A DNA stretch of 64,000 bases from a virus. The notes below the pieces were generated by a model. The model did no database searches. It worked only from the letters and a program-made list of their open reading frames with translations, and was not told the origin of the DNA. This document shows, in pieces, positions 11,278-29,276 of this stretch. The DNA lies in the IMG/VR virus record IMGVR_UViG_3300016665_000824, positions 70,297 through 134,296 of that record; one strand, written 5' to 3'. Position numbers and translations under genes: made by a program. Position 1 is the first letter of the stretch, and each line of letters opens with the position of its first letter.

Positions 11278-11299
11278 ACCAAAAAACGGAAAAACGAGT

Positions 11300-11755
11300 A
11301 TGTCTAACTCTAGTTCTGCCACAAAATTGGCGATCGCAAGATTAAAAGGATCTGACCTGCCTATTTTTGTTCCAGTTTCAGTCTCTGAGAAAGTCGCAAC
11401 CCTAGTCAGGGAGTGTATTTTACAGTCCGACAGTTTAAAGATATTAAAAGTTACTACTACAGTTTACAACGAGCTTACTAAGCATTTAAAGCAGTACGAA
11501 AAGCCAAAATATACCATTCCTCAGTATCTTTTGATGCTCCTATATACGGTTTCTACTACTTCAGAATTGATCGAAAAACACAACAAGGGTTTAATTTCAG
11601 ATGACGAGTTTATTAACTGTATCAAAAACAACAAAAACGCAAACGGGACTAAAACCTCCCGCAAAATGGGTCGGAAGAAAGCAAGCGTTGATGCCAGCGA
11701 TCGCGCAGTACTTCCCCGCGAGGTTCACAAAAGAACCAGTTCCAAGGTTTCTTGA
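11300..11755 (+). CDS. hypothetical protein (3' end uncertain; overlaps MTase gene in another frame)
   Basis: 151-aa ORF; last ~40 codons look non-coding and overlap the Dam-like ORF. Confidence 0.3.
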   Translation: MSNSSSATKLAIARLKGSDLPIFVPVSVSEKVATLVRECILQSDSLKILKVTTTVYNELTKHLKQYEKPKYTIPQYLLMLLYTVSTTSELIEKHNKGLISDDEFINCIKNNKNANGTKTSRKMGRKKASVDASDRAVLPREVHKRTSSKVS

Positions 11756-12518
11756 TTTCAAAAAGGGTGTCGGCAATTTCCACGACCCTTTCGTTGGTAC
11801 TGGTAGTGCATTTTTGTATTTTGCGGATGGATTTCGAGGCGATCGCAAGATTTTTATTAGTGACAGTAATCCTGAACTCATTAATATTTGGCTGTGCATT
11901 CAAGCCGATCCTCTAAGGCTTTTAAGATCCTTGCTTGAATACAAGCGCCCTGTATTTAACAGCGCCGAATCGTACTATCACGAAAGGCAGATCTTCAATC
12001 AGCAGTTTAAAGGTTCTTACGACTACGAGCTAGCAGCAAGAATGATCTACTTAATTCAGGCTGGTTTCAATAGCCTATGGAGGGTTAACAGCGACGGTGA
12101 AATGAACACGCCTTTTGGCTCTCAGAAGCAAATTGCCCTTCTTACCGAGAATGATTTGACCGCGCTTTCGGTTCTCCTTCAAAAAGCGACAATCAAACAT
12201 CAGCCTTTTGAAGAGTCGCTAAAAGATGTACAACCCAATGATGTCGTCTATCTCGACCCGCCATACATTGAAGTCAAAAAGAATTCCTTCAATAAATACA
12301 CCACAAAAGGTTTTAGCAGAGAGCAGCAGATACTCCTCCGCCAAGAAGCCGATCGCCTGCACGATCTAGGCGCTTATGTATACGCCAGTAATAGCGATAC
12401 CCCCTTGAGTCGCGAAATTTGGTCGGGCTGGAAAATCGCAGAACTGACGAGATCGGGCTGCATGAACTCAGATGCAACCAAGCGTCAACGGGTTGGAGAG
12501 TTGTTATTTTATAAATAA
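11601..12518 (+). CDS. N6-adenine DNA methyltransferase, Dam family (D12 class)
   Basis: KWVGRK (cf. KWAGGK), FVGTGSAF SAM-binding motif, and DPPY catalytic motif (VVYLDPPYIE) in the translation. Confidence 0.8.
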   Translation: MTSLLTVSKTTKTQTGLKPPAKWVGRKQALMPAIAQYFPARFTKEPVPRFLDFKKGVGNFHDPFVGTGSAFLYFADGFRGDRKIFISDSNPELINIWLCIQADPLRLLRSLLEYKRPVFNSAESYYHERQIFNQQFKGSYDYELAARMIYLIQAGFNSLWRVNSDGEMNTPFGSQKQIALLTENDLTALSVLLQKATIKHQPFEESLKDVQPNDVVYLDPPYIEVKKNSFNKYTTKGFSREQQILLRQEADRLHDLGAYVYASNSDTPLSREIWSGWKIAELTRSGCMNSDATKRQRVGELLFYK

Positions 12519-12542
12519 AAAAAGCCAGTCGCGGGACTGGCT
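12516..12542 (-). terminator. hairpin with U-run on minus strand
   Basis: agccagtc-gcgg-gactggct preceded on plus strand by A7; would terminate minus-strand (antisense) transcripts inside a plus-strand gene block. Confidence 0.35.
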
Positions 12543-12618
12543 ACAGGTAAAACAACAAAAGACAACTAAGCGGAAATCAACATATACCGAGCATTTGTGG
12601 AGAACAGCTCAGGCACTT

Positions 12619-13122
12619 ATGGATATTAGCACAGAATTAAAACAAATCACTGTGAGATCGATGCGAGGAGGCAGCTTTTCGTTCGGTCCTCACGATATTC
12701 GAGTCGATCGCGGGTCGATCTTAGGCAATCCCTACGAGATGGCGAAAGATGAATCCAATCGCGATCGCGTATGCCTTGCCTACAAGCACTGGCTATTTGC
12801 AAATATTCGGTACTGGCTGGACATGAAAGAAAAAGGCATTGCAAAGGCTCTCTGGTGGCATATCGATCCAAAGAGCATAGCGATCGCCTCGGATTTAAGA
12901 ATTGCTCCGTCGTGGAAGCAGTTCACTGTTGCTCAGGTGGAGAGTGAATTTACTCGCCTCTGCTATGAAGCAACCCAGCACGATATCAACCTCATTTGCT
13001 GGTGCTTTCCAAAAGCTTGCCATGCGGATGTACTGCGAGCAGCCTTGATCTGGTACTACGAGGAGCATTACTTAAAGGAGTGCTCACGGATTGAAACGAC
13101 TATTAAAGAATTTTTTAGGTAA
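12619..13122 (+). CDS. DUF4326-family protein
   Basis: GNPY and CWCFPKACHADVL motifs resemble the DUF4326 signature as recalled (GNPF ... CWC.P..CH); start moved to ATG 12619 because upstream part of ORF 12472.. contains the hairpin. Confidence 0.45.
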   Translation: MDISTELKQITVRSMRGGSFSFGPHDIRVDRGSILGNPYEMAKDESNRDRVCLAYKHWLFANIRYWLDMKEKGIAKALWWHIDPKSIAIASDLRIAPSWKQFTVAQVESEFTRLCYEATQHDINLICWCFPKACHADVLRAALIWYYEEHYLKECSRIETTIKEFFR

Positions 13123-13127
13123 ACACT

Positions 13128-13394
13128 ATGAGAAAACAAGTCCACTATGCCGTTCGCGCCGTTAAAGCCTTGATGGATGGCGATGTTGTAACAATCGATG
13201 GGATGGATTATATCTATCAAGACGGGCAGATACTGATAAGGGCTACTCGCATTGAAGACGGCGTTGAGTCTGAAGTATGGCTGGGAGGAATGTGCTCCGA
13301 AATGAGTCTCGACTACTTTTTGAATTACTGCGCCAACAAAACTTTTGAAGATCAAGTTCTCGATTTTCCCGTAAAAATTCCATCACGGTACTAA
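13128..13394 (+). CDS. hypothetical protein
   Basis: 88-aa ORF. Confidence 0.4.
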   Translation: MRKQVHYAVRAVKALMDGDVVTIDGMDYIYQDGQILIRATRIEDGVESEVWLGGMCSEMSLDYFLNYCANKTFEDQVLDFPVKIPSRY

Positions 13395-13395
13395 T

Positions 13396-13605
13396 ATGAA
13401 TACACAAATTAAGCTCAGGCATTCCGTTGTTTTACCTACACCCCTAAAAGTTGGCGATCGCGTAGAAATCGCAGGTCCATCTCGCCACGTTGGAATTATT
13501 ACGGAGATTAAAGATAGTCCATATTCGGGGCTATCCTACAGCGTCAAGTTTGGCAGCAATATCCGTCTTGACCGTATCGCCCCAGAAGCCTTGACAAAGT
13601 TATGA
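13396..13605 (+). CDS. hypothetical protein
   Basis: 69-aa ORF, tightly spaced. Confidence 0.35.
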   Translation: MNTQIKLRHSVVLPTPLKVGDRVEIAGPSRHVGIITEIKDSPYSGLSYSVKFGSNIRLDRIAPEALTKL

Positions 13606-13934
13606 TTAAGAAGCGTCCAGCGATCGGGCGGCTAGTAAGGTTGCCAAGTAAAATCGTCACTGTTGTGGGGTATAAGGATGGGGTTTTTCTAGTCCGCGTC
13701 GGCACGGGAAAGACTCAGAAAATCACGGAATCGTTTCTTATGGCGCACGGCGTTCTTGTCGAGAAGGAGTGGCGCGAGGAGAAGAAGTCTGCACCCAAAC
13801 AGGAATACGTGAACCGAGAGTTTAAACGCTTCTTTGAGGAGCGAGCCGAAAGGGACTACCAAGAAAAAGTTCTTAAGGGCTTTAAGATTGAGGATGAAGT
13901 TATCGAAGGATTTGAGGCGATCGCGGAGGAATAA
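13602..13934 (+). CDS. hypothetical protein
   Basis: 110-aa Lys/Glu-rich ORF; ends in ...AIAEE with junction motif GCGATCGCGGAGGAATAAATG. Confidence 0.4.
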   Translation: MIKKRPAIGRLVRLPSKIVTVVGYKDGVFLVRVGTGKTQKITESFLMAHGVLVEKEWREEKKSAPKQEYVNREFKRFFEERAERDYQEKVLKGFKIEDEVIEGFEAIAEE

Positions 13935-14141
13935 ATGGATATCGAAGAACTTGTTGCCGCAGCATCCGTAAGTCGGCATATATATCTTGAGCGCGTCGGC
14001 AAAGGTAGGCTACCAAAAGGATTTCCCTGTGGTGAGCTAATGTGCGTTAATTCGGACGGCAACCGAACTTATTTATTTGATTCGGCGAAAGTCTTAAAGT
14101 GGTGTCGAAAGCAAAATAATCAGGCGATCGCGGAGGAATAA
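13935..14141 (+). CDS. hypothetical protein
   Basis: 68-aa ORF; ends ...AIAEE with same junction motif. Confidence 0.35.
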   Translation: MDIEELVAAASVSRHIYLERVGKGRLPKGFPCGELMCVNSDGNRTYLFDSAKVLKWCRKQNNQAIAEE

Positions 14142-14407
14142 TGCGAAAAATAGACAAGGACTACAGTTTTACAGAACGAGAGATTCAGGCGTTAATGTTG
14201 ATATGCACTATTGGACGAGAAGACTGGCTCACTAAAGAGGTGAAGGAGATATTGTCGCAATACATAAGCAGAAAGATGTATCACAGGACTGCTTCTCAAG
14301 TCTTTGCTCACAGAAAAAGAGTTCTGGGTTCTTTCCCTAGCAATGCGGGTAAATACTTACTTGAAAGGCGAACTAGCTTTATTGAGCGATCGCGGAGGAG
14401 TGAGTAA
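14141..14407 (+). CDS. hypothetical protein
   Basis: 88-aa ORF; ends ...RSRRSE within a third copy of GCGATCGCGGAGGA. Confidence 0.35.
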   Translation: MRKIDKDYSFTEREIQALMLICTIGREDWLTKEVKEILSQYISRKMYHRTASQVFAHRKRVLGSFPSNAGKYLLERRTSFIERSRRSE

Positions 14408-14413
14408 AAATAT

Positions 14414-14450
14414 AAAAAGACGATCCGACGTGAGATCGGATCGTCTTTTT
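14414..14450. terminator. bidirectional intrinsic terminator between convergent gene blocks
   Basis: Perfect 15-bp stem aaaaagacgatccga / tcggatcgtcttttt, 7-nt loop, A/T tracts on both sides. Confidence 0.7.
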
Positions 14451-14578
14451 ATATTTTGGTAGGCTGTGAAACAACTAATACAAAAGGGTTTTAGGGTATT
14501 GGAAGGAATTTTGGTAAGGTGTGAATCTCGCTGCTTTTTAATTACGCGAATACACGTAATTCATATTTACCAATACCT

Positions 14579-16336
14579 CTAGCTAGCGATCGCCATTAAT
14601 TTAGTCAACCCAGCCTTCCGCAACATCTCTTGCTGGAGCTTGGTTTGAAAATATGGCTTATCCTCAGCACTTGCTACTCGATACAGTTCCAGCCAGTATT
14701 TCTCCCGCTTCTCGCAGTGTATATGCTGAATCTTGGCGATCGCACGGTCAACCACTGCCTTGACATCGCCAGCGATCGCCTCTTGCATTGCGTAAGGTAT
14801 GTCCGAAAAGTCATCGTTCAGGAATTTATCCCACAGCGCACAGTGATCGTCATGGGCAAATTCGATCTCTTGAAGCAGGATATACCCCCGCAAATCGGGA
14901 TGATGGACAAAGGCTTTTAGTATCTGCATTTCGGCTAGTTGCAGAGCAGTATAACTGGGTTTTGCGGCAACCTGTGGTGATTCAGATCGGAATACCGATC
15001 GCGCAAGTCGATGTAAATCCTCCTCAATGCGTACGGCAAGGCGAGCATTTCCCTGAGCTAACTTCTGAGCACACTTATGGGTATAGTGGCTACGTCGGGC
15101 ATCCATCGGCAATGGGGCGAGTATTTGCGCGATCGCTTGATTAGCTCGCTGGAAGTCGGCAGAATTGTTAAGGTCTTTGCCCTTAATCTCAAGGTCAATT
15201 AACCAGTCAAGGTATAGCGGCGCTTCGCGGAGCAGCGATAAGTACGCTTCAGAACCATAAGTGGTTAGGTACTCGTCGGCATCTTTTTTGCCCTCAATGG
15301 TTAGTATCCGTAGATTTACCGTACCATCCAGAACTAGCTCTAGGACTTGACTTACGGCTTTTTTAGTTGCCGTAACACCTGCTTTGTCCGAGTCGAAGTT
15401 GCAAACTATACGCTTCGACTCAGTATGGCGTAAAACCTGTTTAATTTGAGCGGCGCTAAGCGCTGTGCCCATTGAGCCGACTGCATGGGTAATTCCATTT
15501 TGGTGCAGGGAAATCACGTCGAGGTGTCCTTCGACAATTACCGCCTCGTCGTTCTTGGCGATCGCCTCACAAGCTTTGTCTAGTCCAAACAGTAGTTCAC
15601 CCTTTTTGAACAACTCGGTTTCGGGCGAGTTGATATACTTTGCGCCGTCGTCCTCACCGCTTAGCGATCGCGCAGAAAATCCAACCACGCGACCACGGAT
15701 ATCGGCGATCGGGATAATCAGGCGATCGCGAAATCGGTCATAGTAGCCTTCGTTTTCTTTGCGAGGTATCGCCAACCCCAATTCTTCAAGAGTTTGAACG
15801 GGGATATTTAACTCGGCAAGGTTACTCCACCCCGCAGGCGCGTAACCGAGCTTGAACTTATTGCAGGTATCTCTGGTGATTTTGCGTTTTTCTAAGTAGG
15901 CAAGGGCTTTGGTGTTGAGCTGTTGCTGGTAGTAACGAGTGACTTTAGCTATTTGATCGAAGAGGTATTCCCTGTGCGATCGCTCCTTAACGATTTGCTC
16001 GGCATGTTCTGGCTCTTCGGTTCTTACTTCAACCCCGTAACGACCAGCCAAATCTAGTACGGCATCTGGGAACGATTTATGACCAATCTCCATCATAAAC
16101 TTGATCGCACCACCCGACGCACCGCAGTTATGGCAGTAATACATGCCTTTGCTGGGGTCTACCGAGAGGGCGCTGGGATTCGTGCCGTTGTGAAATGGGC
16201 AAGCGCCACGAAATGAGTGACCCGACCGCTTAAGTACGACGTTTTCGCTAACGACATCAACGATGTCGGCTTTGTCGTTTACTGCGGCGATCGTATCAGC
16301 ATGGATTCGGAATGATTTAGGTTTGGCGGATTGCAT
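14579..16336 (-). CDS. dnaG: DNA primase DnaG
   Basis: CHC2 zinc finger (CPFHNGTNPSALSV...YYCHNCGASGGAIKF) and TOPRIM-like EGHLDVISL segment. Confidence 0.85.
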   Translation of the reverse strand: MQSAKPKSFRIHADTIAAVNDKADIVDVVSENVVLKRSGHSFRGACPFHNGTNPSALSVDPSKGMYYCHNCGASGGAIKFMMEIGHKSFPDAVLDLAGRYGVEVRTEEPEHAEQIVKERSHREYLFDQIAKVTRYYQQQLNTKALAYLEKRKITRDTCNKFKLGYAPAGWSNLAELNIPVQTLEELGLAIPRKENEGYYDRFRDRLIIPIADIRGRVVGFSARSLSGEDDGAKYINSPETELFKKGELLFGLDKACEAIAKNDEAVIVEGHLDVISLHQNGITHAVGSMGTALSAAQIKQVLRHTESKRIVCNFDSDKAGVTATKKAVSQVLELVLDGTVNLRILTIEGKKDADEYLTTYGSEAYLSLLREAPLYLDWLIDLEIKGKDLNNSADFQRANQAIAQILAPLPMDARRSHYTHKCAQKLAQGNARLAVRIEEDLHRLARSVFRSESPQVAAKPSYTALQLAEMQILKAFVHHPDLRGYILLQEIEFAHDDHCALWDKFLNDDFSDIPYAMQEAIAGDVKAVVDRAIAKIQHIHCEKREKYWLELYRVASAEDKPYFQTKLQQEMLRKAGLTKLMAIAS

Positions 16337-16565
16337 CTTGATCTTCCCTATCTACGCGAGCTTCTCCCTCTAAAACTTTTTGCAGGTCTAAAACTCTGAA
16401 GCCGACTGGGTTGCACTGAGTTAACTTGGCTGCGTCATGGATGGCATGACCATACTCTTCGTAAATCTTTCCCTCTTCTACCCCCGCTTCGGCGCAGGCA
16501 GGGCCAGAATAAGGCTCGGAGGTGTAACGACTCGATTTATTGATGATGTACTTAGGCATATTCAC
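16317..16565 (-). CDS. hypothetical protein
   Basis: 82-aa ORF overlapping primase start by 20 nt. Confidence 0.35.
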   Translation of the reverse strand: MNMPKYIINKSSRYTSEPYSGPACAEAGVEEGKIYEEYGHAIHDAAKLTQCNPVGFRVLDLQKVLEGEARVDREDQDAIRQT

Positions 16566-16600
16566 CTCTTGAGAATCTTTTGTACGATCGCTTGTTGTCG

Positions 16601-16903
16601 TTAAACAAATAGGAAGGACTGAACTTCATCAGCCTTGGTTGCGACCAACGGCAAGTGCTGACGCAGTATCTTGTACCCTTGCATCTCCCAAGTCAAAGCA
16701 ATCCTCTCCGCTAGCTCTAAAGCGTCATAACAAGGATTTAATCGATGAAAAACACCGCTCAGTAATTCGTACCCACACTCAGGGGGGAGTTGCTCAAGAT
16801 CTTGGATTAGCTGAGTAATTTTAGTACTTACCGTGATACCACCTTGATTAACAAAAATAGTCGCGTCAAATGTTTTGCTTAGACCTTTCAAATTGATTGT
16901 CAT
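16601..16903 (-). CDS. hypothetical protein
   Basis: ORF 16601..16987; start moved to ATG 16903 (MTINLKG...). Confidence 0.35.
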   Translation of the reverse strand: MTINLKGLSKTFDATIFVNQGGITVSTKITQLIQDLEQLPPECGYELLSGVFHRLNPCYDALELAERIALTWEMQGYKILRQHLPLVATKADEVQSFLFV

Positions 16904-16913
16904 TTTGTTCTTC

Positions 16914-17378
16914 CTATATCTTTTGCGCGATCGCTTGCTTATGGATGCGATCGCTATGTGTTTGCACTGCCGCCAATTCCCGCTCAAGCTGATCGAATGT
17001 CACTCCATCCCTCTTGTCGCCGTCAACCACTGGGGTTAGTACGGGGTTGATAACTGGGGAGTAGACACACCAGCAGATAGCGATCATGTCGAACTCGGAA
17101 GACAATCCTTCAGCCTTAAAGACCTCTACCGAATCAACAACCCAATCGGACTTACGAGAATGTGTAGTCCCATCGTCACGCTGATGGGACTTGAGAGACT
17201 CGGTTACTGTTACTGGGTGGATAGGTCGATCGCCTTTCTTTGGCACGGGTTTTGATGAGTAGCTAAGAACCGTGTAGAGGATGTCGGTAAATAGATTGCA
17301 GTGAGTTAGCTTGCGATCGCTAGCACCCTCAGTTTGTCCCACTTTTGCCTTATAGATAATATATTTACTCACTGTCAT
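16914..17378 (-). CDS. hypothetical protein
   Basis: 154-aa ORF. Confidence 0.4.
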   Translation of the reverse strand: MTVSKYIIYKAKVGQTEGASDRKLTHCNLFTDILYTVLSYSSKPVPKKGDRPIHPVTVTESLKSHQRDDGTTHSRKSDWVVDSVEVFKAEGLSSEFDMIAICWCVYSPVINPVLTPVVDGDKRDGVTFDQLERELAAVQTHSDRIHKQAIAQKI

Positions 17379-17586
17379 TGTCTCCGTATGTTCTGGGGAA
17401 TTTTGCTTCGCCTTTGTAGAAGCAGTTGTGTGTCAGGATTGGATCTCTTGTCAGCTCGTAATGAGAGTAATCCCAATCGTATTTCTTAGCCATTTTTATA
17501 CATCTTTCTTCGCTTGACGCGCTGTGAGTTGTATAAAACTCCTGTTCTTCGTCGTCGTCATTCTGTGGCAAAATCTCGTTAGCCAT
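17365..17586 (-). CDS. hypothetical acidic protein
   Basis: 73-aa ORF, first gene of minus block divergent from XRE gene. Confidence 0.35.
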   Translation of the reverse strand: MANEILPQNDDDEEQEFYTTHSASSEERCIKMAKKYDWDYSHYELTRDPILTHNCFYKGEAKFPRTYGDNDSE

Positions 17587-17731
17587 TAGACCTCTCAGAT
17601 AGGTTTGTTTGGTTAGAGGTGATTGCTTGTTGAGAGCAGGCGATCGCCTCGATAGAAATATTATTGCAGAAGTATTGCCAAAACGTCAACTATTGTTTTA
17701 CACTTAGAGCATATTAATTCGGTGTAGCGAT

Positions 17732-17965
17732 ATGACTAGTTCTACTTTTGTTGTTGAAGTACCTGTAGAGGTCGGAGACCTACCCCAAAAAATATGGGAG
17801 GCTCGGAGACTTTGCCGACGCAATCATGTTGATTTGTGTAGGGATGCTGGCATAACCCGACAATATTGGACACAAATTGAGAAGGGGCAACGCAAATCAA
17901 TCCCTTTACACACACTAAGAAAAATAGAAAAAGCTTTAGGCGTTGATTTTGGTATTCAGGCTTAG
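17732..17965 (+). CDS. XRE-family helix-turn-helix transcriptional regulator (Cro/CI-like)
   Basis: ...LCRDAGITRQYWTQIEKGQRKSIPLHTLRKIEKALGV is a typical XRE HTH; divergent from minus-strand block. Confidence 0.6.
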   Translation: MTSSTFVVEVPVEVGDLPQKIWEARRLCRRNHVDLCRDAGITRQYWTQIEKGQRKSIPLHTLRKIEKALGVDFGIQA

Positions 17966-17970
17966 AAATT

Positions 17971-18327
17971 ATGAAAAAGTTAGACCCCGATGAAATTATC
18001 AACATCAGCTTTGGCTGGTGCTACTTACTTAAAAATGGCGATCGCGTCTGGGAGCAGGACGACGAAGCTATCTGGGCGCATGATGGTGAGGGTGAAATTC
18101 GGTGGGATCGTGTCAAGGATATTGAGGCGATCGCTGCTCAAGACCCCACCGCCAGATACTTGCTAGTTGTAGACGGAGCCATGTATTCGCGAATATACGA
18201 GCGCTTTGCAACTGGCTGGGTGCAGATTAGGCAGATGCTCGGATTTGCGGATGACTACAGCGCTGAGCTTTTTCAAGAAGAGTTGGAGCGGATTGTTCGT
18301 GAAAAGACATTGTGTTTTGTTGAATAG
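17971..18327 (+). CDS. hypothetical protein
   Basis: 118-aa ORF. Confidence 0.4.
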   Translation: MKKLDPDEIINISFGWCYLLKNGDRVWEQDDEAIWAHDGEGEIRWDRVKDIEAIAAQDPTARYLLVVDGAMYSRIYERFATGWVQIRQMLGFADDYSAELFQEELERIVREKTLCFVE

Positions 18328-18359
18328 GCTGCGATCGCATAAAAATCGAGGAGAAAACC

Positions 18360-20924: not shown

Positions 20925-20928
20925 AACT

Positions 20929-22656: not shown

Positions 22657-22681
22657 TAAAAAGCCCACGAGACCCATTCTT

Positions 22682-23263
22682 GTGGGCAAAAACACACAAA
22701 ATTACAACAAAACTATGCAAGAAGAAATCTCACAACAGGAAATCGCTGCGATCGCAGCCGCAAAACTGAAAAGAATGCAGCGATCGCAACAACAAGAGCC
22801 GATAACGAAGGTCGAGCCAAAAACTCCAAGTCCCGCACCAGCAAAACAGTCAAAATCAGCAACAAACAGCTACTGGAACAAACCTCAAAGCAGCATCGAC
22901 ATCGTGAAAAACCCCAAGCACGTTGCCGATATTTACACCATGACCCCGTGGATACCCCAGCCACAGGTAGATGATATCTGCGCGATCGCCGAAAGACCCT
23001 ACGGCGACTGGATAGACCTCGAAGCGCAGCATATCGAAGGCAAGTGGGATAGGCAAAGATTCATTGAGTCAGCCTATAACTGGCCTTTCCGCGCCAAGAT
23101 GCGATGTGTTGAAATTTCTGAGGACGGACTGATGGCAACAGTATCCGTCTCAGGAGTCCGCAAACGATTACCACTAGTGTGTTTATGGGAGATGAATGAA
23201 ATAGTTGACACTATGACTAATAGTGAGTATGATGAATCTTGGTTTCAGGTAAGACAATTATGA
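22682..23263 (+). CDS. hypothetical protein
   Basis: 193-aa ORF; its 3' end contains an internal promoter-like element. Confidence 0.4.
   Translation: MGKNTQNYNKTMQEEISQQEIAAIAAAKLKRMQRSQQQEPITKVEPKTPSPAPAKQSKSATNSYWNKPQSSIDIVKNPKHVADIYTMTPWIPQPQVDDICAIAERPYGDWIDLEAQHIEGKWDRQRFIESAYNWPFRAKMRCVEISEDGLMATVSVSGVRKRLPLVCLWEMNEIVDTMTNSEYDESWFQVRQL
23205..23233 (+). promoter_or_regulatory. sigma70-type promoter (TTGACA-N17-TATGAT)
   Basis: Canonical -35 and -10 hexamers with 17-nt spacer about 27 nt upstream of ATG 23260. Confidence 0.45.
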
Positions 23264-23574
23264 CAAAGACTTTAATCTGTAGAGAGATTAAGTGCCTGTA
23301 TTTCGACGTTTCAGACCCAATGAGTTCTGGTTGTAAATTCTACGAAAGCGCTCGTCAATGTCACCTACTGTCTGGGATGCTTTCTACTGAAAAGACAGCA
23401 CTGGCGACTGACTACGAAATAATTGCTGAAGATTTGTATACGGCTGAAGACCTGATCAGGGTTGAAAACGATTTTTACATTAAATGTTCTGAAAAGTATT
23501 TACGCGATTGTGAGCTTCAGGGGCTTACACCTGAACCCGTAAGAGAAAATGTTCGAGCATGGTTTCGTAGATGA
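23260..23574 (+). CDS. hypothetical Cys-containing protein
   Basis: ORF 23239..23574; start at ATG 23260 downstream of promoter. Confidence 0.4.
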   Translation: MTKTLICREIKCLYFDVSDPMSSGCKFYESARQCHLLSGMLSTEKTALATDYEIIAEDLYTAEDLIRVENDFYIKCSEKYLRDCELQGLTPEPVRENVRAWFRR

Positions 23575-23661
23575 CTCCAGCAACTAAAGCAAGATTCACA
23601 AATAGGCGATCGCCTTCTCTGCCTCGTTTTTTAACATTTTGTGGCAGTTAAAAGAAAATGT

Positions 23662-23690
23662 TTGACAGTATGCCTAGTAGTGTGTATGAT
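23662..23690 (+). promoter_or_regulatory. sigma70-type promoter (TTGACA-N17-TATGAT), second copy
   Basis: Same hexamers and spacing as 23205-23233; about 80% identical 50-bp context; 26 nt upstream of ATG 23716. Confidence 0.45.
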
Positions 23691-23715
23691 GGTATTTAGT
23701 TTCAGGTAAAACAAT

Positions 23716-24234
23716 ATGACGAATAGCTTGGCTGTGACCTACCAATCGCTCCCACAGAAAGAACAGCTTGAGATACTAGCAGGAGTATCACACCTTATGA
23801 TAAAGGTAATGGCAGGTAAAATCCCAACAACAGAAGAGATGGACTTGGCTTCAAAAGCCCAGACCCATCCAAGCCTATTTTTAAAATGCTTCTCTGCCGA
23901 ACTTATGGGAGAGGAGTGGAGACCAAAGCTATTGCCTCAAGGCGGAGAAGGGTATATTATTCGCTGGAAATCCGATGAATACGAAGAGGTAGAGACCGAC
24001 TCCTATCCCTTTAAAAAGAGGGTTTACAAAGAAGAGGGCAATGGACTTGAAATCCAAAGCTACGAGCAGGCGATCGCCAATTGTGAATTTCTAAATAAGC
24101 AATACCCAGAGAGGACTTACTGGCACTTCTGGGTAAACCAAGACATCCTCAACAACGCAGAAAGCGAGGGTCTTCAACTCATAGACACTGTTGCTCAGCA
24201 TCTCTTTGAGGCTCTATCACAGGCTCATGGTTAG
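23716..24234 (+). CDS. hypothetical protein
   Basis: 172-aa ORF downstream of promoter copy 2. Confidence 0.4.
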   Translation: MTNSLAVTYQSLPQKEQLEILAGVSHLMIKVMAGKIPTTEEMDLASKAQTHPSLFLKCFSAELMGEEWRPKLLPQGGEGYIIRWKSDEYEEVETDSYPFKKRVYKEEGNGLEIQSYEQAIANCEFLNKQYPERTYWHFWVNQDILNNAESEGLQLIDTVAQHLFEALSQAHG

Positions 24235-24237
24235 TTT

Positions 24238-24528
24238 ATGACCCCAGAAACTAGAGCGCGATTCAAAGAATGGGCGATCGCCTACTGGAAGAAAAATCCA
24301 AAGTTACTGAAGCCACCCGATGACTTTCTCACGCAAGGACAGCAGTTGGCGATCGCTATCTACCATGCCATTCCCGCCGATGGGAAGTTTATTAAAGCTG
24401 ATGCGATCGCTACTAAGCTCAAACGCAAAACCAGACAAATAGAAGAGATTCTGGGGCTAATCAAAGAGCCGTGGCATCTCAAGTCAAGTAAAAACAACAA
24501 GGAAGGAGGATATACGAGAAATGAGTGA
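24238..24528 (+). CDS. hypothetical protein
   Basis: 96-aa ORF. Confidence 0.35.
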   Translation: MTPETRARFKEWAIAYWKKNPKLLKPPDDFLTQGQQLAIAIYHAIPADGKFIKADAIATKLKRKTRQIEEILGLIKEPWHLKSSKNNKEGGYTRNE

Positions 24529-24793
24529 CACAGTTGGTTTGATTTTTGGTAAGGAAGATAGCAGGACAGAGCAGGAAATCTCTGAGCTTGCGGAGGTCGT
24601 AAAAGCGGCTGGAATTAAGAGAAACCCTGCCATGTTTGCAAGATTTATTTACACACTCGACAAGACAAAAACCTGTCACCCGTCGATTGACCGTGAAGCC
24701 TTTCTGCTAACACTTCAAGAAGTATGGGAAGAGAAGGGACTCCAAGGACTTTCTCTCGCTGAAGAAATATATCAAAGAGGTTTTACAAGATGA
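24521..24793 (+). CDS. hypothetical protein
   Basis: 90-aa ORF. Confidence 0.35.
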   Translation: MSDTVGLIFGKEDSRTEQEISELAEVVKAAGIKRNPAMFARFIYTLDKTKTCHPSIDREAFLLTLQEVWEEKGLQGLSLAEEIYQRGFTR

Positions 24794-25527
24794 TTGAAAG
24801 GCAAGTTAAACTGCTGGTTCTAGACAAAGACGGTACACTCGTTCGCCCCAAATCTGGCAATACCTTCGTCCAGCACCCCGAAGATCAGGAGCTAATCGAA
24901 GGAGTGGCTGAAGCTATTCAGAGGTATGTTGCTGATGGATGGCAGTTGGCGATCGCGTCAAATCAGGGTGGATGCGAAGTGCGATGGTGTCACCCCGCCG
25001 AATTACCTGTAGGTAGTTACTGCAATGTAGATAACATTGCCATCAAGGTTGAATACCTTCAAGACACTGGTGAGTTTATACTCGTAAATGGGCATCACCC
25101 ACTACCAAAAACTAGGTTTGCGAAGTTCCAATACAAGACTCTCGGCATAGCGATCGCAGAGATGCAGTATGCGATGAAGCTGATCGGCATTCAGTATCAT
25201 GGTCTATTCTGTCCAGACATGCAAGGGAATGAATGCTACATGACTTCGGACTTTGCTGCTCCGCCATTACACAAGGTTGATAGATACAAACACTTAATAG
25301 GCTCGTTCCGTAAGCCCAGTGGTGGAATGTTGCTAGCATTAAAGCAGCACTTTGAAACACATCTTGATGATGTTGATCGGCTGCTCATGATCGGCGATCG
25401 TCCCGAAGATTTGGGATCGGCTCAAGCCGCAGGATTCGATTTTGTGTGGGCAGAAGACTGGCGAAATAACGAACTAGACAAAGTTCTGCCCTACAGGAGC
25501 GAAGAATGGATCGCTCTGAACTCCTAA
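24790..25527 (+). CDS. HAD-superfamily (subfamily IIIA-like) phosphatase
   Basis: Motif I LDKDGTL, motif II ASNQGG, conserved Lys in FRKPSGGML, motif IV MIGDRPED; same fold as polynucleotide 3'-phosphatases and GmhB. Confidence 0.6.
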   Translation: MIERQVKLLVLDKDGTLVRPKSGNTFVQHPEDQELIEGVAEAIQRYVADGWQLAIASNQGGCEVRWCHPAELPVGSYCNVDNIAIKVEYLQDTGEFILVNGHHPLPKTRFAKFQYKTLGIAIAEMQYAMKLIGIQYHGLFCPDMQGNECYMTSDFAAPPLHKVDRYKHLIGSFRKPSGGMLLALKQHFETHLDDVDRLLMIGDRPEDLGSAQAAGFDFVWAEDWRNNELDKVLPYRSEEWIALNS

Positions 25528-25805
25528 CTCGCATCCAAGTCCAGCGAATGTGGCTAGAGGACATCCGTGGCAAGTCTCTAGCTCCTCAGTTGGAGATTTG
25601 GAAGAACAAATACCTTGCCGCAAATAATCTCACGCATCTGGATGCTCAGGGGCTGGAGCAACTGCTTAAGGCTCTTGAGTCTATGACTAAGGCTACGGTG
25701 AGTAACGCCGAGGAATTGGATAGTCAGATGCGCGAGAGGATTAAGAGTGGCGACTACTCGATTCGATTTGTTGAAAAGATTGTTGAAGATGATGAATATT
25801 TTTAG
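25506..25805 (+). CDS. hypothetical protein
   Basis: 99-aa ORF; 3' end carries 29-bp repeat R1. Confidence 0.35.
   Translation: MDRSELLTRIQVQRMWLEDIRGKSLAPQLEIWKNKYLAANNLTHLDAQGLEQLLKALESMTKATVSNAEELDSQMRERIKSGDYSIRFVEKIVEDDEYF
25776..25804. repeat. 29-bp direct repeat R1 copy a (aagattgttgaagatgatgaatattttta)
   Basis: Identical copy at 26321-26349. Confidence 0.7.
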
Positions 25806-25824
25806 GAGGAGGTAAACCCCAACC

Positions 25825-26040
25825 ATGCGAAACGCCTACTTAACACTTTTTGTGATCAACACCCGTTCAGGACTCGCAGTTAATTATTCAATCAATACCG
25901 CAGCCGACCAGAAGGAGGCTAGAGCCGATGCTCTACTACTCATCGATGAGAGATATCGAGGTCAAAATATTCAGGTTCTAGAAACATCTATTATTCCAAA
26001 CGAAGTTATCGATCAGGTTTATGAGTCTCGACACGAGTAA
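25825..26040 (+). CDS. hypothetical protein
   Basis: 71-aa ORF. Confidence 0.35.
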   Translation: MRNAYLTLFVINTRSGLAVNYSINTAADQKEARADALLLIDERYRGQNIQVLETSIIPNEVIDQVYESRHE

Positions 26041-26059
26041 ACTCGATCGCCACTTTTTC

Positions 26060-26088
26060 AGATCTGAATTACCACAAAAGCACAATGA
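26060..26088. repeat. 29-bp direct repeat R2 copy a (agatctgaattaccacaaaagcacaatga)
   Basis: Identical copy at 26801-26829; both include a start codon. Confidence 0.7.
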
Positions 26089-26318
26089 TTTTAGAGGCCT
26101 ATTATGAAACGTGGGTATCTCGCCCCATTCAAAAGAGAGCTAAAGGTCGAGCCACCTATAGTAAGCCGCAGTGGGAGCATACCTCAGACACAGAAGAAGA
26201 GGCGATCGCTCACAACAAGATGCTTTCGGCTTACTACCCCGACTGGAAGATTGAAATCAGGGCTGTCGAACAAAAACGAGAATACTGGGATGTCAAGACT
26301 GCGGCAGTTCGAGATTAA
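26085..26318 (+). CDS. hypothetical protein
   Basis: 77-aa ORF starting inside R2 copy a. Confidence 0.35.
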   Translation: MILEAYYETWVSRPIQKRAKGRATYSKPQWEHTSDTEEEAIAHNKMLSAYYPDWKIEIRAVEQKREYWDVKTAAVRD

Positions 26319-26320
26319 AG

Positions 26321-26349
26321 AAGATTGTTGAAGATGATGAATATTTTTA
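26321..26349. repeat. 29-bp direct repeat R1 copy b
   Basis: Identical to 25776-25804. Confidence 0.7.
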
Positions 26350-26359
26350 AGAGGTTAAT

Positions 26360-26851
26360 ATGGCAAGTGTCAAGCATTATTTAAGTTGCCCAGCTAAGCC
26401 CTACGAAGAAGGGATACCCTTATACTCCGATCGCCTGAGAGAATGGTTTCACGATATCGGTGATGTCTGGGAATACTACGAAGATCAGATCGGAGAAGAT
26501 GAGGATATTGATCTTGAATGGGCGGAAGCCAAGCAATCGCCTCAAGGTATTTGTGAAATGGCTCGTCTTTTCTTAGGTAGACCAGTTTATTTGCCGTGGG
26601 CTGAGATTCCTGAATTTGATCTACCTGATGGTGTTGACGATATCTCGGAAATACTGCCGCCAAGCCACGAGATCAACATAAAACTTGCCGAGTTAAACAA
26701 GCTTATCGAAGAAACAAAGCTGGTTGTTTGCTACGAGGAGTCTAGCTACCGCCCAGATCCAGAAACCTTGGACTTTAAGTGCGCGATCGTCGCTTTTTTT
26801 AGATCTGAATTACCACAAAAGCACAATGAAAGCTCGACAGTTCGAGATTAA
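26360..26851 (+). CDS. hypothetical acidic protein
   Basis: 163-aa ORF; 3' end runs through R2 copy b. Confidence 0.35.
   Translation: MASVKHYLSCPAKPYEEGIPLYSDRLREWFHDIGDVWEYYEDQIGEDEDIDLEWAEAKQSPQGICEMARLFLGRPVYLPWAEIPEFDLPDGVDDISEILPPSHEINIKLAELNKLIEETKLVVCYEESSYRPDPETLDFKCAIVAFFRSELPQKHNESSTVRD
26801..26829. repeat. 29-bp direct repeat R2 copy b
   Basis: Identical to 26060-26088. Confidence 0.7.
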
Positions 26852-27080
26852 ATTTAGAAACCATCCAGAGTGCGATCGCCTAGTCGAAGCCACCAGTCAT
26901 GCCAAAGCCAAGATGAAGCTCGCCTACGAGTTGGTTGAGGCGGGAGTATTTAATACTTTTGGAGAGGCTTTACTGGCGATCGCCACCTGCCGAGTCTTAC
27001 AGCCAATGAAGCGAGGGAAACCCGAAGGGTGGTATCGGGTGAACCCTAAACGAAAAACAACAAGGAACAAAAAGCAGTGA
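26826..27080 (+). CDS. hypothetical basic protein
   Basis: ORF 26724..27080; start moved to ATG 26826 inside R2 copy b (MKARQFEIKF...). Confidence 0.35.
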   Translation: MKARQFEIKFRNHPECDRLVEATSHAKAKMKLAYELVEAGVFNTFGEALLAIATCRVLQPMKRGKPEGWYRVNPKRKTTRNKKQ

Positions 27081-27643
27081 TTGACAAAACAAGATTAGAA
27101 ATAGCGAACAAGGTCTTAGCAGTACTCAGTGAGTCTTATCGTAAGACTGAGTTTGTAGTTAGCGATCGCAACCGACTTTACCTGAACTGGTTCGATTATT
27201 ACGGCAAGGCATATAGTCGTCCTTGGGCAACAAGATGTGGCTCGGCGTATCCAAGCTGGAGCGACAAACTGTCTTGCGGCGGCACGATGATGACGGCGAT
27301 CGCGCAGTTGGCTTTATGGGTTCGCGGATTGCCTTGCTACCCCATTCAGACTTGGGAGTATTGGTGCGGAGAGACGGTTGGAATGAGAGGTGGGGAGAAA
27401 ATTCTTCCACTCTTAAGGGACAGTGGCTGTTATCCCGATGGACTTAGTTGTGCTTTTTGTGGGGCTAGGGATGTCGAGAGGGATTGGTATTGGTTCTCGC
27501 CTCACCCTAAGCACTCTGGGTTTGGATGCCAGCGCCCAGAATGCCAGCCAATTATAGATCTTAGGAATAGTTTGGACGTAAAACAACAAAATCGCGTCAA
27601 AAGAATTTTATCCTCGCAACGTATCCCTGCTTCCGTAAAATAG
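27077..27643 (+). CDS. hypothetical Cys/Trp-rich protein
   Basis: 188 aa with many Cys and Trp (CGSAYPSW, CAFCG, CQRPEC); GTG start. Confidence 0.4.
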   Translation: MIDKTRLEIANKVLAVLSESYRKTEFVVSDRNRLYLNWFDYYGKAYSRPWATRCGSAYPSWSDKLSCGGTMMTAIAQLALWVRGLPCYPIQTWEYWCGETVGMRGGEKILPLLRDSGCYPDGLSCAFCGARDVERDWYWFSPHPKHSGFGCQRPECQPIIDLRNSLDVKQQNRVKRILSSQRIPASVK

Positions 27644-27790
27644 TTTGATCGGTAACGTAAATTTGTGGCAATATTAACAGAAGCGTTTCAAGAACAATGA
27701 ACAAACTAATTGCCTATCTGGTAAACAAAATCGAATCTGCTTACCACACTGCAAGATTCCTGCTATCTATACTTAAATTGGAGTTTCCCC

Positions 27791-28105
27791 ATGCTAGACC
27801 CCATAGAGCTACAGGTCAGTATTTTCGAGATGGAGTTCACGCAGGCGATCGCGCACCAATCCCTCCCAGAAGCAAGAAAGGCAGTAGCCGATTATTTGCA
27901 GCTACTGGAGCACAAGAAGGACTCGACAATCAGGCTGAGACCCCAAGTGACATCCTTGGTTTCTGGGCTGGAGACCCTCTCGATAGATTTACTAATTCAA
28001 TCAACCGAAAGTCGGGAGGAACTCAAGGCGATCGCGGTAAGGATTTGCAGGATGTTGCTGAAACTAAACACGCTGCTCAAGGAAGCGGTGAGCGGGATCT
28101 GCTAA
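27791..28105 (+). CDS. hypothetical helical protein
   Basis: 104-aa ORF; overlapping 212-aa ORF 27697..28335 in another frame looks non-coding through this stretch. Confidence 0.35.
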   Translation: MLDPIELQVSIFEMEFTQAIAHQSLPEARKAVADYLQLLEHKKDSTIRLRPQVTSLVSGLETLSIDLLIQSTESREELKAIAVRICRMLLKLNTLLKEAVSGIC

Positions 28106-28331
28106 CCCAGCAGGACATTATCCTAGACAAGATGCGTCGGAAGCAATCGGAATTTGAAGACTACTACGTTTTTAGCACTCACGACATAGTGACCCTATGT
28201 GAGGACAGTCATCTGGACTGGGACTTGGCTTTTGACCAGCTAATAGCTTTAAACAAGAGGAATCTAGTTGCTATAAATCCGACATATTGCGATCGCACAG
28301 GCAAATTTATCGGATTGTTGTGGGGTTTAAA

Positions 28332-29276
28332 ATGAGTAAAACCGTAGCCACGATGTATTCTGGCTTTGGCGGAGTTGATCAGGGTTTCGTTTTGGCAGGG
28401 TATACGCCAGTCTTTGCGATCGATAACAATCCTGATGCAGTAGCGGTTTATATCGAGAATTTTGGCAACCACTGTCTAGAGAAGGACGTTTGTGAGTTTG
28501 ATTATTCAAGAGTTAAAGCAGATCACCTCCATGCTTCTCCAAGCTGCAAAGAGTTTAGTAGCGCCAATCACCGTAGTAGCGAAACCGATCTCGATATTCG
28601 ATGCGCCCAAGCTACGGTTAAGGCGATCGCACAGATAAACCCTCAAACATTTTCCCTCGAAAATGTAAAGCAGTACGCTAAGTCTAAGTCTTTTGATTTG
28701 ATTAGGCGATCGCTACGAGAAATGGGCTACGCCTGCAACGTAACCGTAGTCAACGCGAAGGATTTCGGTGTATCCCAATCACGAGAAAGGCTAATTCTTC
28801 GAGCATGGGTTAAATCCCGCAAACGCCCTAGACCTTTGGCGTTGTACAAACAGTGTTTAACAATGGGGTGGCATGACGCGATCGCCGATTTAATCCCCAC
28901 TCTCAAACCACAACCATTGAATAATTGGCAGCTAGCCTCTCTTGAGGAGCAGGGTATAGACCCCACCAACCTAACTGCACTGGTTAGCAAAGATGGGTCT
29001 CGCAAGAAAAAAGGCTTTAAAAATACTTTTGCCTTGGTAATCCCCTCGTCCAAGCCTTGCCCAACCCTCAAGGCAATGGGGCATAATCAGCACTGTCAGC
29101 AGTATTCGATTGTGGTTAACGGTGTTGGTTATCGGATTTCTACCGAGGCGATCGCGAGACTAATGAGCTTTCCCGACTCATTCAAATTCTCAGGAGTGAA
29201 TTATAAAGACTGTATGGGTTTAGGTAATGCAGTACCGCCATTATTGGTAAGAGCGATCGCGGAAAGTTTTGCTTAA
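28332..29276 (+). CDS. DNA (cytosine-5)-methyltransferase
   Basis: Motif I YSGFGG, motif IV PSCKEFS (Pro-Cys catalytic dipeptide), ENV, QSRER, GNAV; start at ATG 28332. Confidence 0.8.
   Translation: MSKTVATMYSGFGGVDQGFVLAGYTPVFAIDNNPDAVAVYIENFGNHCLEKDVCEFDYSRVKADHLHASPSCKEFSSANHRSSETDLDIRCAQATVKAIAQINPQTFSLENVKQYAKSKSFDLIRRSLREMGYACNVTVVNAKDFGVSQSRERLILRAWVKSRKRPRPLALYKQCLTMGWHDAIADLIPTLKPQPLNNWQLASLEEQGIDPTNLTALVSKDGSRKKKGFKNTFALVIPSSKPCPTLKAMGHNQHCQQYSIVVNGVGYRISTEAIARLMSFPDSFKFSGVNYKDCMGLGNAVPPLLVRAIAESFA

What the first reader, a model, noticed from the sequence alone, without database searches (positions are those of the whole stretch)
11601..29276. Two orphan DNA methyltransferases in an element saturated with HIP1 sites
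A Dam-family N6-adenine MTase (DPPY motif) and a C5-cytosine MTase (PC catalytic motif, ENV, QxRxR) are encoded with no recognisable restriction endonuclease next to either. HIP1 (GCGATCGC) contains both GATC and CGATCG. In model cyanobacteria these subsites are methylated by host Dam-like and C5 MTases, so these genes may reproduce host-type HIP1 methylation as self-protection or epigenetic control. Target specificity is an inference.
Basis: partly seen in the sequence, partly recalled or inferred. Interest (0 to 1): 0.5.

Follow-up and report, generated by a model that had tools for sequence, protein, structure and literature searches.

The report
Two solitary methyltransferases in HIP1-rich cyanophage
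A roughly 134-kb uncultured freshwater cyanophage, packed with the cyanobacterial HIP1 palindrome, encodes a GATC-type adenine methylase and a cytosine-5 methylase of unknown target, neither with a restriction partner; this is an ordinary phage anti-restriction arrangement in an unusual genome.

Summary
A D12/Dam-type N6-adenine methyltransferase lies at 11601-12518 (+). A complete C5-cytosine methyltransferase lies at 28332-29276 (+). HIP1 occurs 186 times in 64 kb, where about 1 is expected. One detail is wrong: motif IV of the C5 enzyme reads SPSC, not PC.

The element is a tailed phage on a 134,398-bp metagenome contig, possibly a phage-plasmid.

GATC specificity for the Dam enzyme is well supported. 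The E. coli Dam contact residues K9, N120, L122, R124 and P134 are conserved and Y119 is F; only Y138 is lost.

CGATCG specificity for the C5 enzyme is not supported, and not excluded. It belongs to a cyanophage-borne clade. The best match in GTDB genomes is about 31% identical. Sister phages carry an unrelated 424-433-aa C5 methyltransferase at the same slot.

No restriction gene was found beside either methyltransferase. The conserved upstream neighbour stays in place when the C5 gene is swapped and is absent beside an identical one.

The genome has shed most restriction-type palindromes: CCGG 0 of 170 expected, and 25 of 64 six-base palindromes absent. It keeps GATC, CGATCG and HIP1. The most likely function is protective self-methylation that complements site avoidance.

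Verdict: new member of a known kind, modest interest.

The parts
11601..12518 (+). Dam-type (D12, alpha-class) N6-adenine DNA methyltransferase, 305 aa; predicted target GATC
   Evidence: PF02086 E=6.9e-43. TIGR00571 E=1.5e-55. Best solved relatives are DpnM (GATC) at 2e-37 and E. coli Dam at 3e-24. The GATC-contact residues are conserved. Contains 2 HIP1 sites.
28332..29276 (+). C5-cytosine DNA methyltransferase, 314 aa (the open frame starts at TTG 28287); target unknown
   Evidence: PF00145 E=9.7e-40. Identical to P0001 on the 134,398-bp contig. Motifs I, IV (SPSC), VI (ENV), VIII (QSRER), IX and X are present. Contains 5 HIP1 sites.
27697..28335 (+). 212-aa protein of unknown function; its stop overlaps the start of the C5 gene by 4 nt; not a restriction enzyme as far as can be told
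   Evidence: No hit in Pfam, PHROGs, PADLOC or NCBIfam. Only one database homologue, P0196 at 68%. That homologue sits beside an unrelated 424/433-aa C5 methyltransferase. 29-33% homologues occur in L002 and L004, but none in L003 beside the identical methyltransferase. The AF2 model is mostly disordered with a small C-terminal helix/strand domain (pLDDT 46.9).
12472..13122 (+). DUF4326 protein downstream of Dam; the pairing is conserved in related phages
   Evidence: PF14216 E=1.6e-13. phrog_464, function unknown. The same neighbourhood occurs in L005 and a second contig.
11300..11755 (+). 151-aa ORF upstream of Dam, overlapping it by 155 nt; unknown function
   Evidence: No family hits. A 153-aa counterpart is called upstream of Dam in L005. 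The full-length Dam frame with KWVGRK is also intact there.
10297..11199 (-). 300-aa protein, divergent from the Dam operon; unknown function
   Evidence: No significant family hits. Conserved as a 295-aa gene in L005. The single-sequence AF2 model is all-helical but unreliable (pLDDT 41.8).
29310..29821 (+). Two small ORFs (89 and 80 aa) downstream of the C5 gene; unknown function
   Evidence: No family hits. Sister phages have a 68-70-aa DUF7167 gene here instead.
2252..63883 (.). 186 HIP1 (GCGATCGC) copies: the likely substrate landscape. Each contains one GATC and one CGATCG.
   Evidence: 186 observed, 1.1 expected. 524 GATC in all, of which 249 lie in CGATCG. 159 of the 186 HIP1 copies are inside ORFs.

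Best explanation
The window is part of a roughly 134-kb tailed cyanophage, possibly a phage-plasmid, of a HIP1-rich and restriction-rich freshwater cyanobacterium. It escapes host restriction in two complementary ways. First, it has purged nearly all restriction-type palindromes from its sequence. Second, it methylates its own DNA with two solitary methyltransferases. The Dam-type enzyme methylates the adenine of GATC. That covers all 524 GATC sites, including the 186 inside HIP1. The C5 enzyme methylates a cytosine-containing site the phage has not purged. CGATCG is one candidate; GCGC, CGCG, GCNGC and AGCT are others. The C5 gene sits in an exchangeable slot that related phages fill with a different, non-homologous C5 methyltransferase. 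Shown: the gene identities, the motifs, the absence of a detectable restriction partner, the site statistics and the slot polymorphism. Inferred: GATC specificity, with strong support. Also inferred: the protective function and the C5 target, which remains open.
For: The element is a phage: portal, large terminase, DnaB and ThyX, DnaG, and a tail-fibre gene. It lies on a 134,398-bp contig.

Dam. The best solved relatives are the GATC enzymes DpnM and E. coli Dam. In alignment A2, K9, R95, N120, L122, R124, N126, N132 and P134 of E. coli Dam are conserved, and Y119 is F as in DpnM. PMC4417163 assigns these residues to GATC recognition.

C5. All catalytic motifs are invariant in the family. The gene carries 5 HIP1 sites, so it has been resident for a long time.

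Solitary status. No restriction-enzyme model hits any neighbour. The 212-aa neighbour persists beside an unrelated C5 methyltransferase and is missing beside the identical one.

Restriction pressure. CCGG 0 of 170 expected, GGCC 10 of 170, CCWGG 4 of 93, GGNCC 16 of 170, GRCGYC 1 of 43. Twenty-five of 64 six-base palindromes are absent. GATC outside CGATCG is at expectation (275 against 246), and GCGC, CGCG, AGCT and GCNGC are not depleted.

Conservation. Dam and the 314-aa-type C5 gene probably co-occur in a second phage lineage about 75% identical in DNA, inferred from matching gene order between L005 and a separate contig that carries the C5 gene.
Against: No methylation data exist, so neither target is demonstrated.

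Y138 and R137 of E. coli Dam are not conserved, so recognition of the first base pair could be relaxed.

The host probably already methylates GATC and CGATCG (PMC4390886, PMC6105098). Protection of these particular sites by the phage may therefore be redundant unless host methylation lags behind phage replication.

The two phage types with different C5 enzymes show no difference in k-mer avoidance. If the two enzymes had different targets a difference might be expected, although power is low with about 20 kb of sister sequence.

Restriction enzymes diverge fast. The 300-aa and 212-aa neighbours have no assignable fold.
Confidence: 0.6

Rival explanations
1. One reading: the pair reproduces host-type HIP1 methylation. 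Dam methylates GATC, and the C5 enzyme methylates the first cytosine of CGATCG as DmtC/M.Ssp6803I does. Every HIP1 in progeny DNA would then carry the host pattern.
For: GATC specificity is supported. CGATCG is 20-fold over-represented and not purged. In cyanobacteria, GATC and CGATCG methyltransferases usually co-occur (PMC6105098). The closest relatives of the C5 enzyme in IMG/VR sit on contigs enriched in CGATCG. One of them has CGATCG at 5.4 per kb with no HIP1 flank preference (L006). The two alternative C5 enzymes leave the avoidance profile unchanged, which fits their having the same target.
Against: The C5 enzyme is not an orthologue of the host enzyme. No genome-encoded protein exceeds about 31% identity (scan truncated). 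No NCBI-sourced protein exceeds 38%. Identity in the target-recognition region to the next clade is only about 30%. More distant family members sit on contigs with no CGATCG at all (L018-L022). The association with CGATCG-rich contigs may only reflect host range.
Confidence: 0.27
2. A regulatory role rather than defence. As in phage-plasmid P1, phage Dam methylation would time packaging, replication or partition. HIP1/GATC sites would be the read-out.
For: The window encodes a ParA-type partition ATPase (NF041546, E=9e-45), a ParB-N-like protein and a beta-clamp, which suggests plasmid-like maintenance. HIP1 positions are conserved between phages only 75% identical: 29/33 and 31/37 sites, against 15-17% for any 8-mer. 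This suggests the sites matter. The role of Dam in P1 packaging is from my own knowledge, not tested here.
Against: No pac or ori element with clustered GATC was identified. HIP1 sites are spread evenly. The C5 slot is exchangeable, which fits arms-race genes better than core regulators.
Confidence: 0.2
3. The phage methyltransferases help to create or maintain HIP1 in the phage genome, through the methylation-biased mismatch-repair ratchet proposed by Elhai.
For: HIP1 density is 2906 per Mb, at or above the host range of 500-2500 per Mb. One-off HIP1 variants concentrate at positions 1 and 8 (62 of 80), the signature described for host genomes. Both alternative C5 genes are themselves full of HIP1.
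Against: Host enzymes acting on a resident element would give the same pattern. The repair system the model postulates is hypothetical (PMC5861425). The C5 target is unknown.
Confidence: 0.1
4. One or both genes belong to a cryptic restriction-modification system whose endonuclease is too divergent to recognise.
For: The unknown ORFs at 27697-28335, 10297-11199 and 11300-11755 have no assignable function. The 212-aa gene is translationally coupled to the C5 gene.
Against: The 212-aa protein is mostly predicted disordered. It stays beside a non-homologous methyltransferase and is absent beside an identical one. No nuclease motif or model hit was found.
Confidence: 0.05

Closest known systems
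Phage-encoded solitary Dam methyltransferases (T4/T2 Dam, P1 Dam/Dmt) and the bacterial GATC enzymes DpnM and E. coli Dam
   Same: Same D12 alpha-class fold, with the N-terminal KWxGxK, then FxGxG and DPPY. The beta-hairpin contact residues for GATC are conserved. No restriction partner.
   Different: Only 31-37% identical to any characterised enzyme. There is a 15-residue insert between motifs X and I. Y138 and R137 are replaced. It is not fused to a C5 domain as in P1 Dmt; that fusion is from my own knowledge.
Cyanobacterial orphan methyltransferases DmtA/M.Ssp6803III (GATC) and DmtC/M.Ssp6803I (m5CGATCG)
   Same: The same pairing of an adenine and a C5-cytosine methyltransferase in a HIP1-rich replicon, without restriction enzymes (PMC4390886, PMC6105098).
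   Different: The phage genes are not close relatives of genome-encoded enzymes. The CGATCG target of the C5 enzyme is unproven.
Phage anti-restriction C5 methyltransferases (for example those of Bacillus phages SPR and phi3T; from my own knowledge) and the methyltransferase of Planktothrix phage PaV-LD
   Same: A solitary phage-borne PF00145 enzyme in the early/replication gene block. PaV-LD is the best GenBank phage match (31%).
   Different: A single small target-recognition region, so not a multispecific enzyme. Motif IV has SC instead of PC. Specificity is unknown.
Restriction-site avoidance in phages and in Microcystis genomes
   Same: Palindromic 4- to 6-mers are depleted, as described for phages (PMC6286503, found; only its title and abstract were seen) and for Microcystis (PMC2442094). 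15 of the 21 rarest Microcystis palindromes occur at most once here.
   Different: The extent is extreme: 25 of 64 six-base palindromes are absent and CCGG is absent. This coexists with a 280-fold excess of one 8-base palindrome.

Membership tests
D12/Dam-family N6-adenine DNA methyltransferase | PF02086/TIGR00571 domain above the curated cut-off, with motif order X, I, then IV (DPPY) | tested here: met
   147.6 bits against a cut-off of 22. 188.8 bits against a cut-off of 114.85. KWVGRK, DPFVGTGS and DPPY are present.
GATC-specific subgroup of Dam enzymes | Recognition-hairpin residues equivalent to E. coli Dam Y119 (aromatic), N120, L122, R124 and P134, plus K9 | tested here: met
   F156, N157, L159, R161, P171 and K22 align with them. 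Their roles are given in PMC4417163.
GATC-specific subgroup of Dam enzymes | Y138, the second contact to the first base pair | tested here: not met
   Replaced by Q in the window enzyme and not kept as Y in any of its close relatives (Q, H, G, N or T). R137 is replaced by S in the window enzyme.
GATC-specific subgroup of Dam enzymes | Demonstrated m6A at GATC | not testable with these tools
   Needs an expression or methylome experiment.
C5-cytosine DNA methyltransferase (PF00145) | Conserved motifs I, IV (catalytic Cys), VI (ENV), VIII (QxRxR), IX and X | tested here: met
   Motif IV is the variant SPSC; P70 and C72 are invariant in the family.
DmtC / M.Ssp6803I / M.XorII clade (m5C at CGATCG) | Orthology with the coherent group of chromosomal cyanobacterial enzymes | tested here: not met
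   Indirect. The best GTDB genome match is 30-31% and hits are scattered over unrelated phyla (scan truncated at 600 stretches). NCBI-sourced hits are at most 38%. No reference DmtC sequence could be obtained for a direct comparison.
DmtC / M.Ssp6803I / M.XorII clade (m5C at CGATCG) | CGATCG methylation activity | not testable with these tools
   Needs a PvuI protection test or bisulfite sequencing.
Type II restriction-modification system | A cognate endonuclease gene adjacent to the methyltransferase | tested here: not met
   No hit in four libraries. Synteny argues against the 212-aa neighbour. The structure models are too poor to exclude a new fold.
P1-type Dmt (fused Dam and C5 methyltransferase of phage-plasmids) | A single polypeptide with both domains | tested here: not met
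   The two genes lie 16 kb apart. Only the alternative 424-aa C5 enzyme of the sister phages resembles C5 methyltransferases of roughly 95-kb enterobacterial plasmids that are annotated as Dam family (32-34%). Reading those plasmids as P1-like is my own.

The most novel reading that the evidence does not exclude
HIP1 is a functional, methylation-dependent element in the phage itself. The phage-encoded Dam and C5 pair would methylate GATC and CGATCG within HIP1. That methylation would either drive the accumulation of HIP1 (Elhai's ratchet) or be read by phage replication, packaging or partition machinery. This would explain why HIP1 sites are at host-maximal density and positionally conserved between phages that have diverged to 75% identity. 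A 134-kb virus would then be a tractable system for the 25-year-old question of what HIP1 is for.
Probability: 0.12. Interest if true: 0.75.

Novelty: new member of a known kind. Interest (0 to 1): 0.35.

Why it matters
Solitary phage methyltransferases are common, so the genes themselves are not surprising. The setting has some value. This is a virus whose HIP1 density matches or exceeds the densest host genomes. Its HIP1 sites are positionally conserved. It has removed almost every other restriction-type palindrome, and it carries its own GATC methylase plus an exchangeable C5 methylase. If the C5 enzyme proved CGATCG-specific, this phage lineage would offer a small natural system for testing whether methylation creates or uses HIP1. 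The lineage includes sister phages with a different C5 gene. If the C5 enzyme is not CGATCG-specific, this is a clean example of combined site avoidance and self-methylation against a host rich in restriction systems.

Tried and rejected
- **DNA similarity.** Megablast of 11000-30000 against GenBank phages and PLSDB plasmids gave no match.
- **Reference CGATCG enzyme.** I tried to obtain a DmtC, M.Ssp6803I or M.XorII sequence for a direct comparison of the target-recognition region. No tool retrieves a protein by name. The GTDB scan returned only relatives that carry the family-specific motifs and was cut at 600 stretches. Membership in that clade could therefore be judged only indirectly.
- **Inferring the C5 target from phages with different C5 enzymes.** No 4- to 6-mer differs between the window and L167. 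Only about 20 kb of sister sequence was available, so power is low.
- **Inferring the target from site statistics across 80 IMG/VR contigs that carry family members.** Target-recognition identity to the window enzyme is only about 30%, so specificities cannot be transferred.
- **Looking for an m5C deamination signature in HIP1 variants and in HIP1 differences between relatives.** Changes occur at positions 1/8, 2/7 and 3/6 with no decisive bias.
- **Structure prediction of the 300-aa and 212-aa neighbours.** pLDDT was 42 and 47, too low for a fold search.
- **tRNA scan.** None found.
- **Host assignment to Microcystis from shared rare palindromes.** Suggestive only.


Full report
**Observation.** The interval is bounded by two real methyltransferase genes.

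- ORF 11601-12518 (+), 305 aa, is a D12/Dam-class N6-adenine methyltransferase. It matches PF02086 at E=6.9e-43 and TIGR00571 at E=1.5e-55. It has the N-terminal KWVGRK, DPFVGTGS and DPPY.
- ORF 28287-29276 (+) is a complete C5-cytosine methyltransferase (PF00145, E=9.7e-40). The start that gene callers use is 28332, giving 314 aa identical to database protein P0001.
- ENV, QSRER, motif IX and GNAVPP are present and invariant in the family.
- HIP1 occurs 186 times in 64 kb against 1.1 expected. By my count of that list, 56 copies lie in the interval.
- A six-frame motif scan found no third methyltransferase.

**What the element is.** The window is part of the 134,398-bp metagenome contig ena:ERZ27292652:k141_20893.

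- It encodes a portal protein, large terminase, DnaB, a replication initiator and ThyX.
- It also encodes DnaG, a beta-clamp and an M23/SLT lysin, and a tail-fibre protein.
- Precomputed Pfam hits on the called genes add a DCD-family protein, RusA, MazG and SSB.
- It is therefore a tailed phage.
- A ParA-type partition ATPase (NF041546, E=9e-45) and a ParB-N-like protein hint at a phage-plasmid lifestyle.
- It has no DNA-level relative among GenBank phages or PLSDB plasmids. Its terminase is under 30% identical to any GenBank phage.
- Related contigs of 139-141 kb come from other metagenome samples.

**The Dam-type enzyme.**

- Its best solved relatives are the GATC enzymes DpnM (2e-37) and E. 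coli Dam (3e-24).
- I aligned it with its relatives and with E. coli Dam. It agrees with the PDB alignment over residues 32-266 apart from one residue.
- K9, R95, N120, L122, R124, N126, N132 and P134 are conserved. Y119 is F, as in DpnM.
- PMC4417163 assigns R124 to the fourth base pair, L122 and P134 to the third, Y119 to intercalation, N120 to a base hydrogen bond, and K9 with Y138 to the first base pair.
- Y138 and R137 are not conserved here.
- I conclude that GATC is the target with high probability. Discrimination at the first base may be looser.
- The apparently truncated 250-aa homologue in L005 is a gene-calling artefact; the full frame is intact.

**The C5 enzyme.**

- Close relatives (67-89% identity) exist only on metagenome contigs of the same phage group. 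The next tier is at most 48%.
- IMG/VR holds nothing closer than 39%. GenBank phages hold nothing closer than 31% (Planktothrix phage PaV-LD).
- In 185,579 GTDB species genomes the best hit is 30-31%. Hits are scattered across Bacteroidales, Clostridia, Planctomycetota and three cyanobacteria. That scan was truncated.
- Host CGATCG enzymes form a coherent orthologous group found in most HIP1-rich cyanobacteria (PMC4390886).
- If the phage enzyme belonged to that group, many cyanobacterial proteins should rank high. They do not, so I do not file it there.
- Its target cannot be read from sequence. Identity in the target-recognition region to the next clade is about 30%.
- Some distant family members sit on contigs with no CGATCG at all, while the nearer ones sit on CGATCG-rich contigs.

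**Slot polymorphism.**

- I searched with the 212-aa gene that overlaps the C5 start by 4 nt. This led to sister phages L166-L172, about 82% identical in DNA.
- In them the homologous 216-aa gene (68% identity) is followed by an unrelated 424/433-aa C5 methyltransferase. The gene order is otherwise unchanged (DUF7167, DCD, ThyX).
- BLASTP between the two C5 enzymes gives E=0.004.
- The 424-aa enzyme resembles C5 methyltransferases of enterobacterial plasmids of about 95 kb that are annotated as Dam family, and those of diverse phages. Reading those plasmids as P1-like phage-plasmids is my own.
- Both alternative genes carry 4-5 HIP1 sites, so both have been resident for a long time.
- In L003 the identical 314-aa enzyme lacks the upstream gene. 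In L004 a TnpB element sits next to the slot.
- The slot therefore behaves like an exchangeable accessory locus.

**Solitary status.**

- None of the neighbours matches any restriction-enzyme model in Pfam, PHROGs, PADLOC or NCBIfam. The neighbours are 10297-11199, 11300-11755, 12472-13122 (DUF4326), 27077-27643, 27697-28335, 29310-29579 and 29579-29821.
- The 212-aa protein is predicted mostly disordered, with a small C-terminal helix/strand domain (pLDDT 46.9).
- Its linkage pattern is independent of which methyltransferase follows it.
- The 300-aa protein gave an unreliable all-helical model (pLDDT 41.8).
- A cryptic endonuclease cannot be excluded formally but is unlikely.

**Genomic context that bears on function.** The phage shows extreme avoidance of restriction-type sites.

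| Site | Observed | Expected |
|---|---|---|
| CCGG | 0 | 170 |
| GGCC | 10 | 170 |
| CCWGG | 4 | 93 |
| CCNGG | 4 | 170 |
| GGNCC | 16 | 170 |
| GRCGYC | 1 | 43 |
| CYCGRG | 0 | 43 |

- Twenty-five of the 64 six-base palindromes are absent and five more occur once.
- Fifteen of the 21 rarest palindromes of Microcystis PCC 7806 are among the 30 that are absent or occur once. This is a hint at a restriction-rich bloom-forming host, not proof.
- The sites not purged are GATC (275 outside CGATCG against about 246 expected), CGATCG (249), GCGC, CGCG, AGCT, TCGA and GCNGC.
- These are either sites the hosts do not cut or sites the phage protects. The C5 target should be among them.

**HIP1 in the phage.**

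- Density is 2906 per Mb, at or above the 500-2500 per Mb that Elhai gives for high-frequency host genomes.
- 159 of the 186 copies lie in ORFs, most often read as Ala-Ile-Ala.
- One-off variants concentrate at positions 1 and 8 (62 of 80), the pattern described for hosts.
- HIP1 positions are conserved between phages about 75% identical: 29/33 and 31/37 sites, against 15-17% for any 8-mer. BLAST anchoring inflates this somewhat.
- The first 2.25 kb has no HIP1. It has 40% GC and contains a tail-fibre gene.

**Mechanism and rivals.**

- My best reading (0.6) is protective self-methylation by two solitary enzymes that complements site avoidance. Dam acts on GATC and the C5 enzyme on an unpurged site.
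- A P1-like regulatory role for Dam gets about 0.2. It is not exclusive of the best reading.
- A role in generating HIP1 gets about 0.1.
- A cryptic restriction-modification system gets about 0.05.

**Comparison and novelty.**

- Phage-borne solitary Dam and C5 methyltransferases are well known. This is a new member of that kind, from an uncultured cyanophage lineage.
- What is unusual is the genome around them, recorded under the things noticed in passing.
- Interest is 0.35.

Noticed in passing
window 1-64000: Extreme avoidance of restriction-type palindromes at 45% GC. CCGG 0 (170 expected), GGCC 10 (170), CCWGG 4 (93), GGNCC 16 (170), GRCGYC 1 (43), CYCGRG 0 (43). 25 of 64 six-base palindromes are absent and 5 more occur once. 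GATC, CGATCG, GCGC, CGCG, AGCT, TCGA and GCNGC are not depleted. 15 of the 21 rarest palindromes of Microcystis PCC 7806 occur at most once here.
   Followed up: partly
window 4242-43548 compared with L002, L003, L005, L167, L171: HIP1 sites are positionally conserved between phages that have diverged to about 75% DNA identity: 29/33, 10/13 and 31/37 sites, against 15-17% for an arbitrary 8-mer. HIP1 density (2906 per Mb) is at or above the range reported for host genomes. One-off variants concentrate at positions 1 and 8.
   Followed up: partly
L166-L172 (for example L169:7427-8701) compared with window 28332-29276: Sister phages carry an unrelated 424/433-aa C5 methyltransferase at exactly the same slot, downstream of the conserved 216-aa gene. 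In L003 the 314-aa enzyme lacks that upstream gene. In L004 a TnpB (OrfB_IS605) element lies next to the slot.
   Followed up: partly
window 1-2250: A HIP1-free stretch: 0 sites where about 6.5 are expected, 0 CGATCG, GC 40%. It contains a tail-fibre-like gene (297-1202) and two small ORFs. It looks like a recently exchanged host-range cassette.
   Followed up: partly
window 59816-60448 (-), 43376-44035 (-), 44004-45185 (-), 48019-49362 (-): A ParA-type partition ATPase (E=9e-45), a ParB-N-like protein, a DNA polymerase III beta-clamp and an FtsK-like ATPase sit in a genome that also has a portal and a terminase. This suggests a phage-plasmid lifestyle. No integrase was seen among the ORFs scanned.
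   Followed up: no
L006 and L008 (IMG/VR contigs 3300032431_000029 and _000227): These phage contigs carry a 38%-identical C5 family member. The 6-mer CGATCG is hyper-abundant in them (114 in 21 kb) with no preference for the HIP1 flanks. CGCG is almost absent (2 against 54 expected).
   Followed up: no
window 19102-19701 (+): A T5orf172/MUG113 (GIY-YIG-like) homing-endonuclease-type gene lies just upstream of the replication initiator. Sister phages have an HNH-domain-containing 463-aa gene in the corresponding place.
   Followed up: no
L049, L053, L077, L085: Other viral contigs that carry distant members of the same C5 family have almost no GATC (0-2 sites in 11-21 kb against 43-80 expected). 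This is the opposite GATC strategy from this phage.
   Followed up: no
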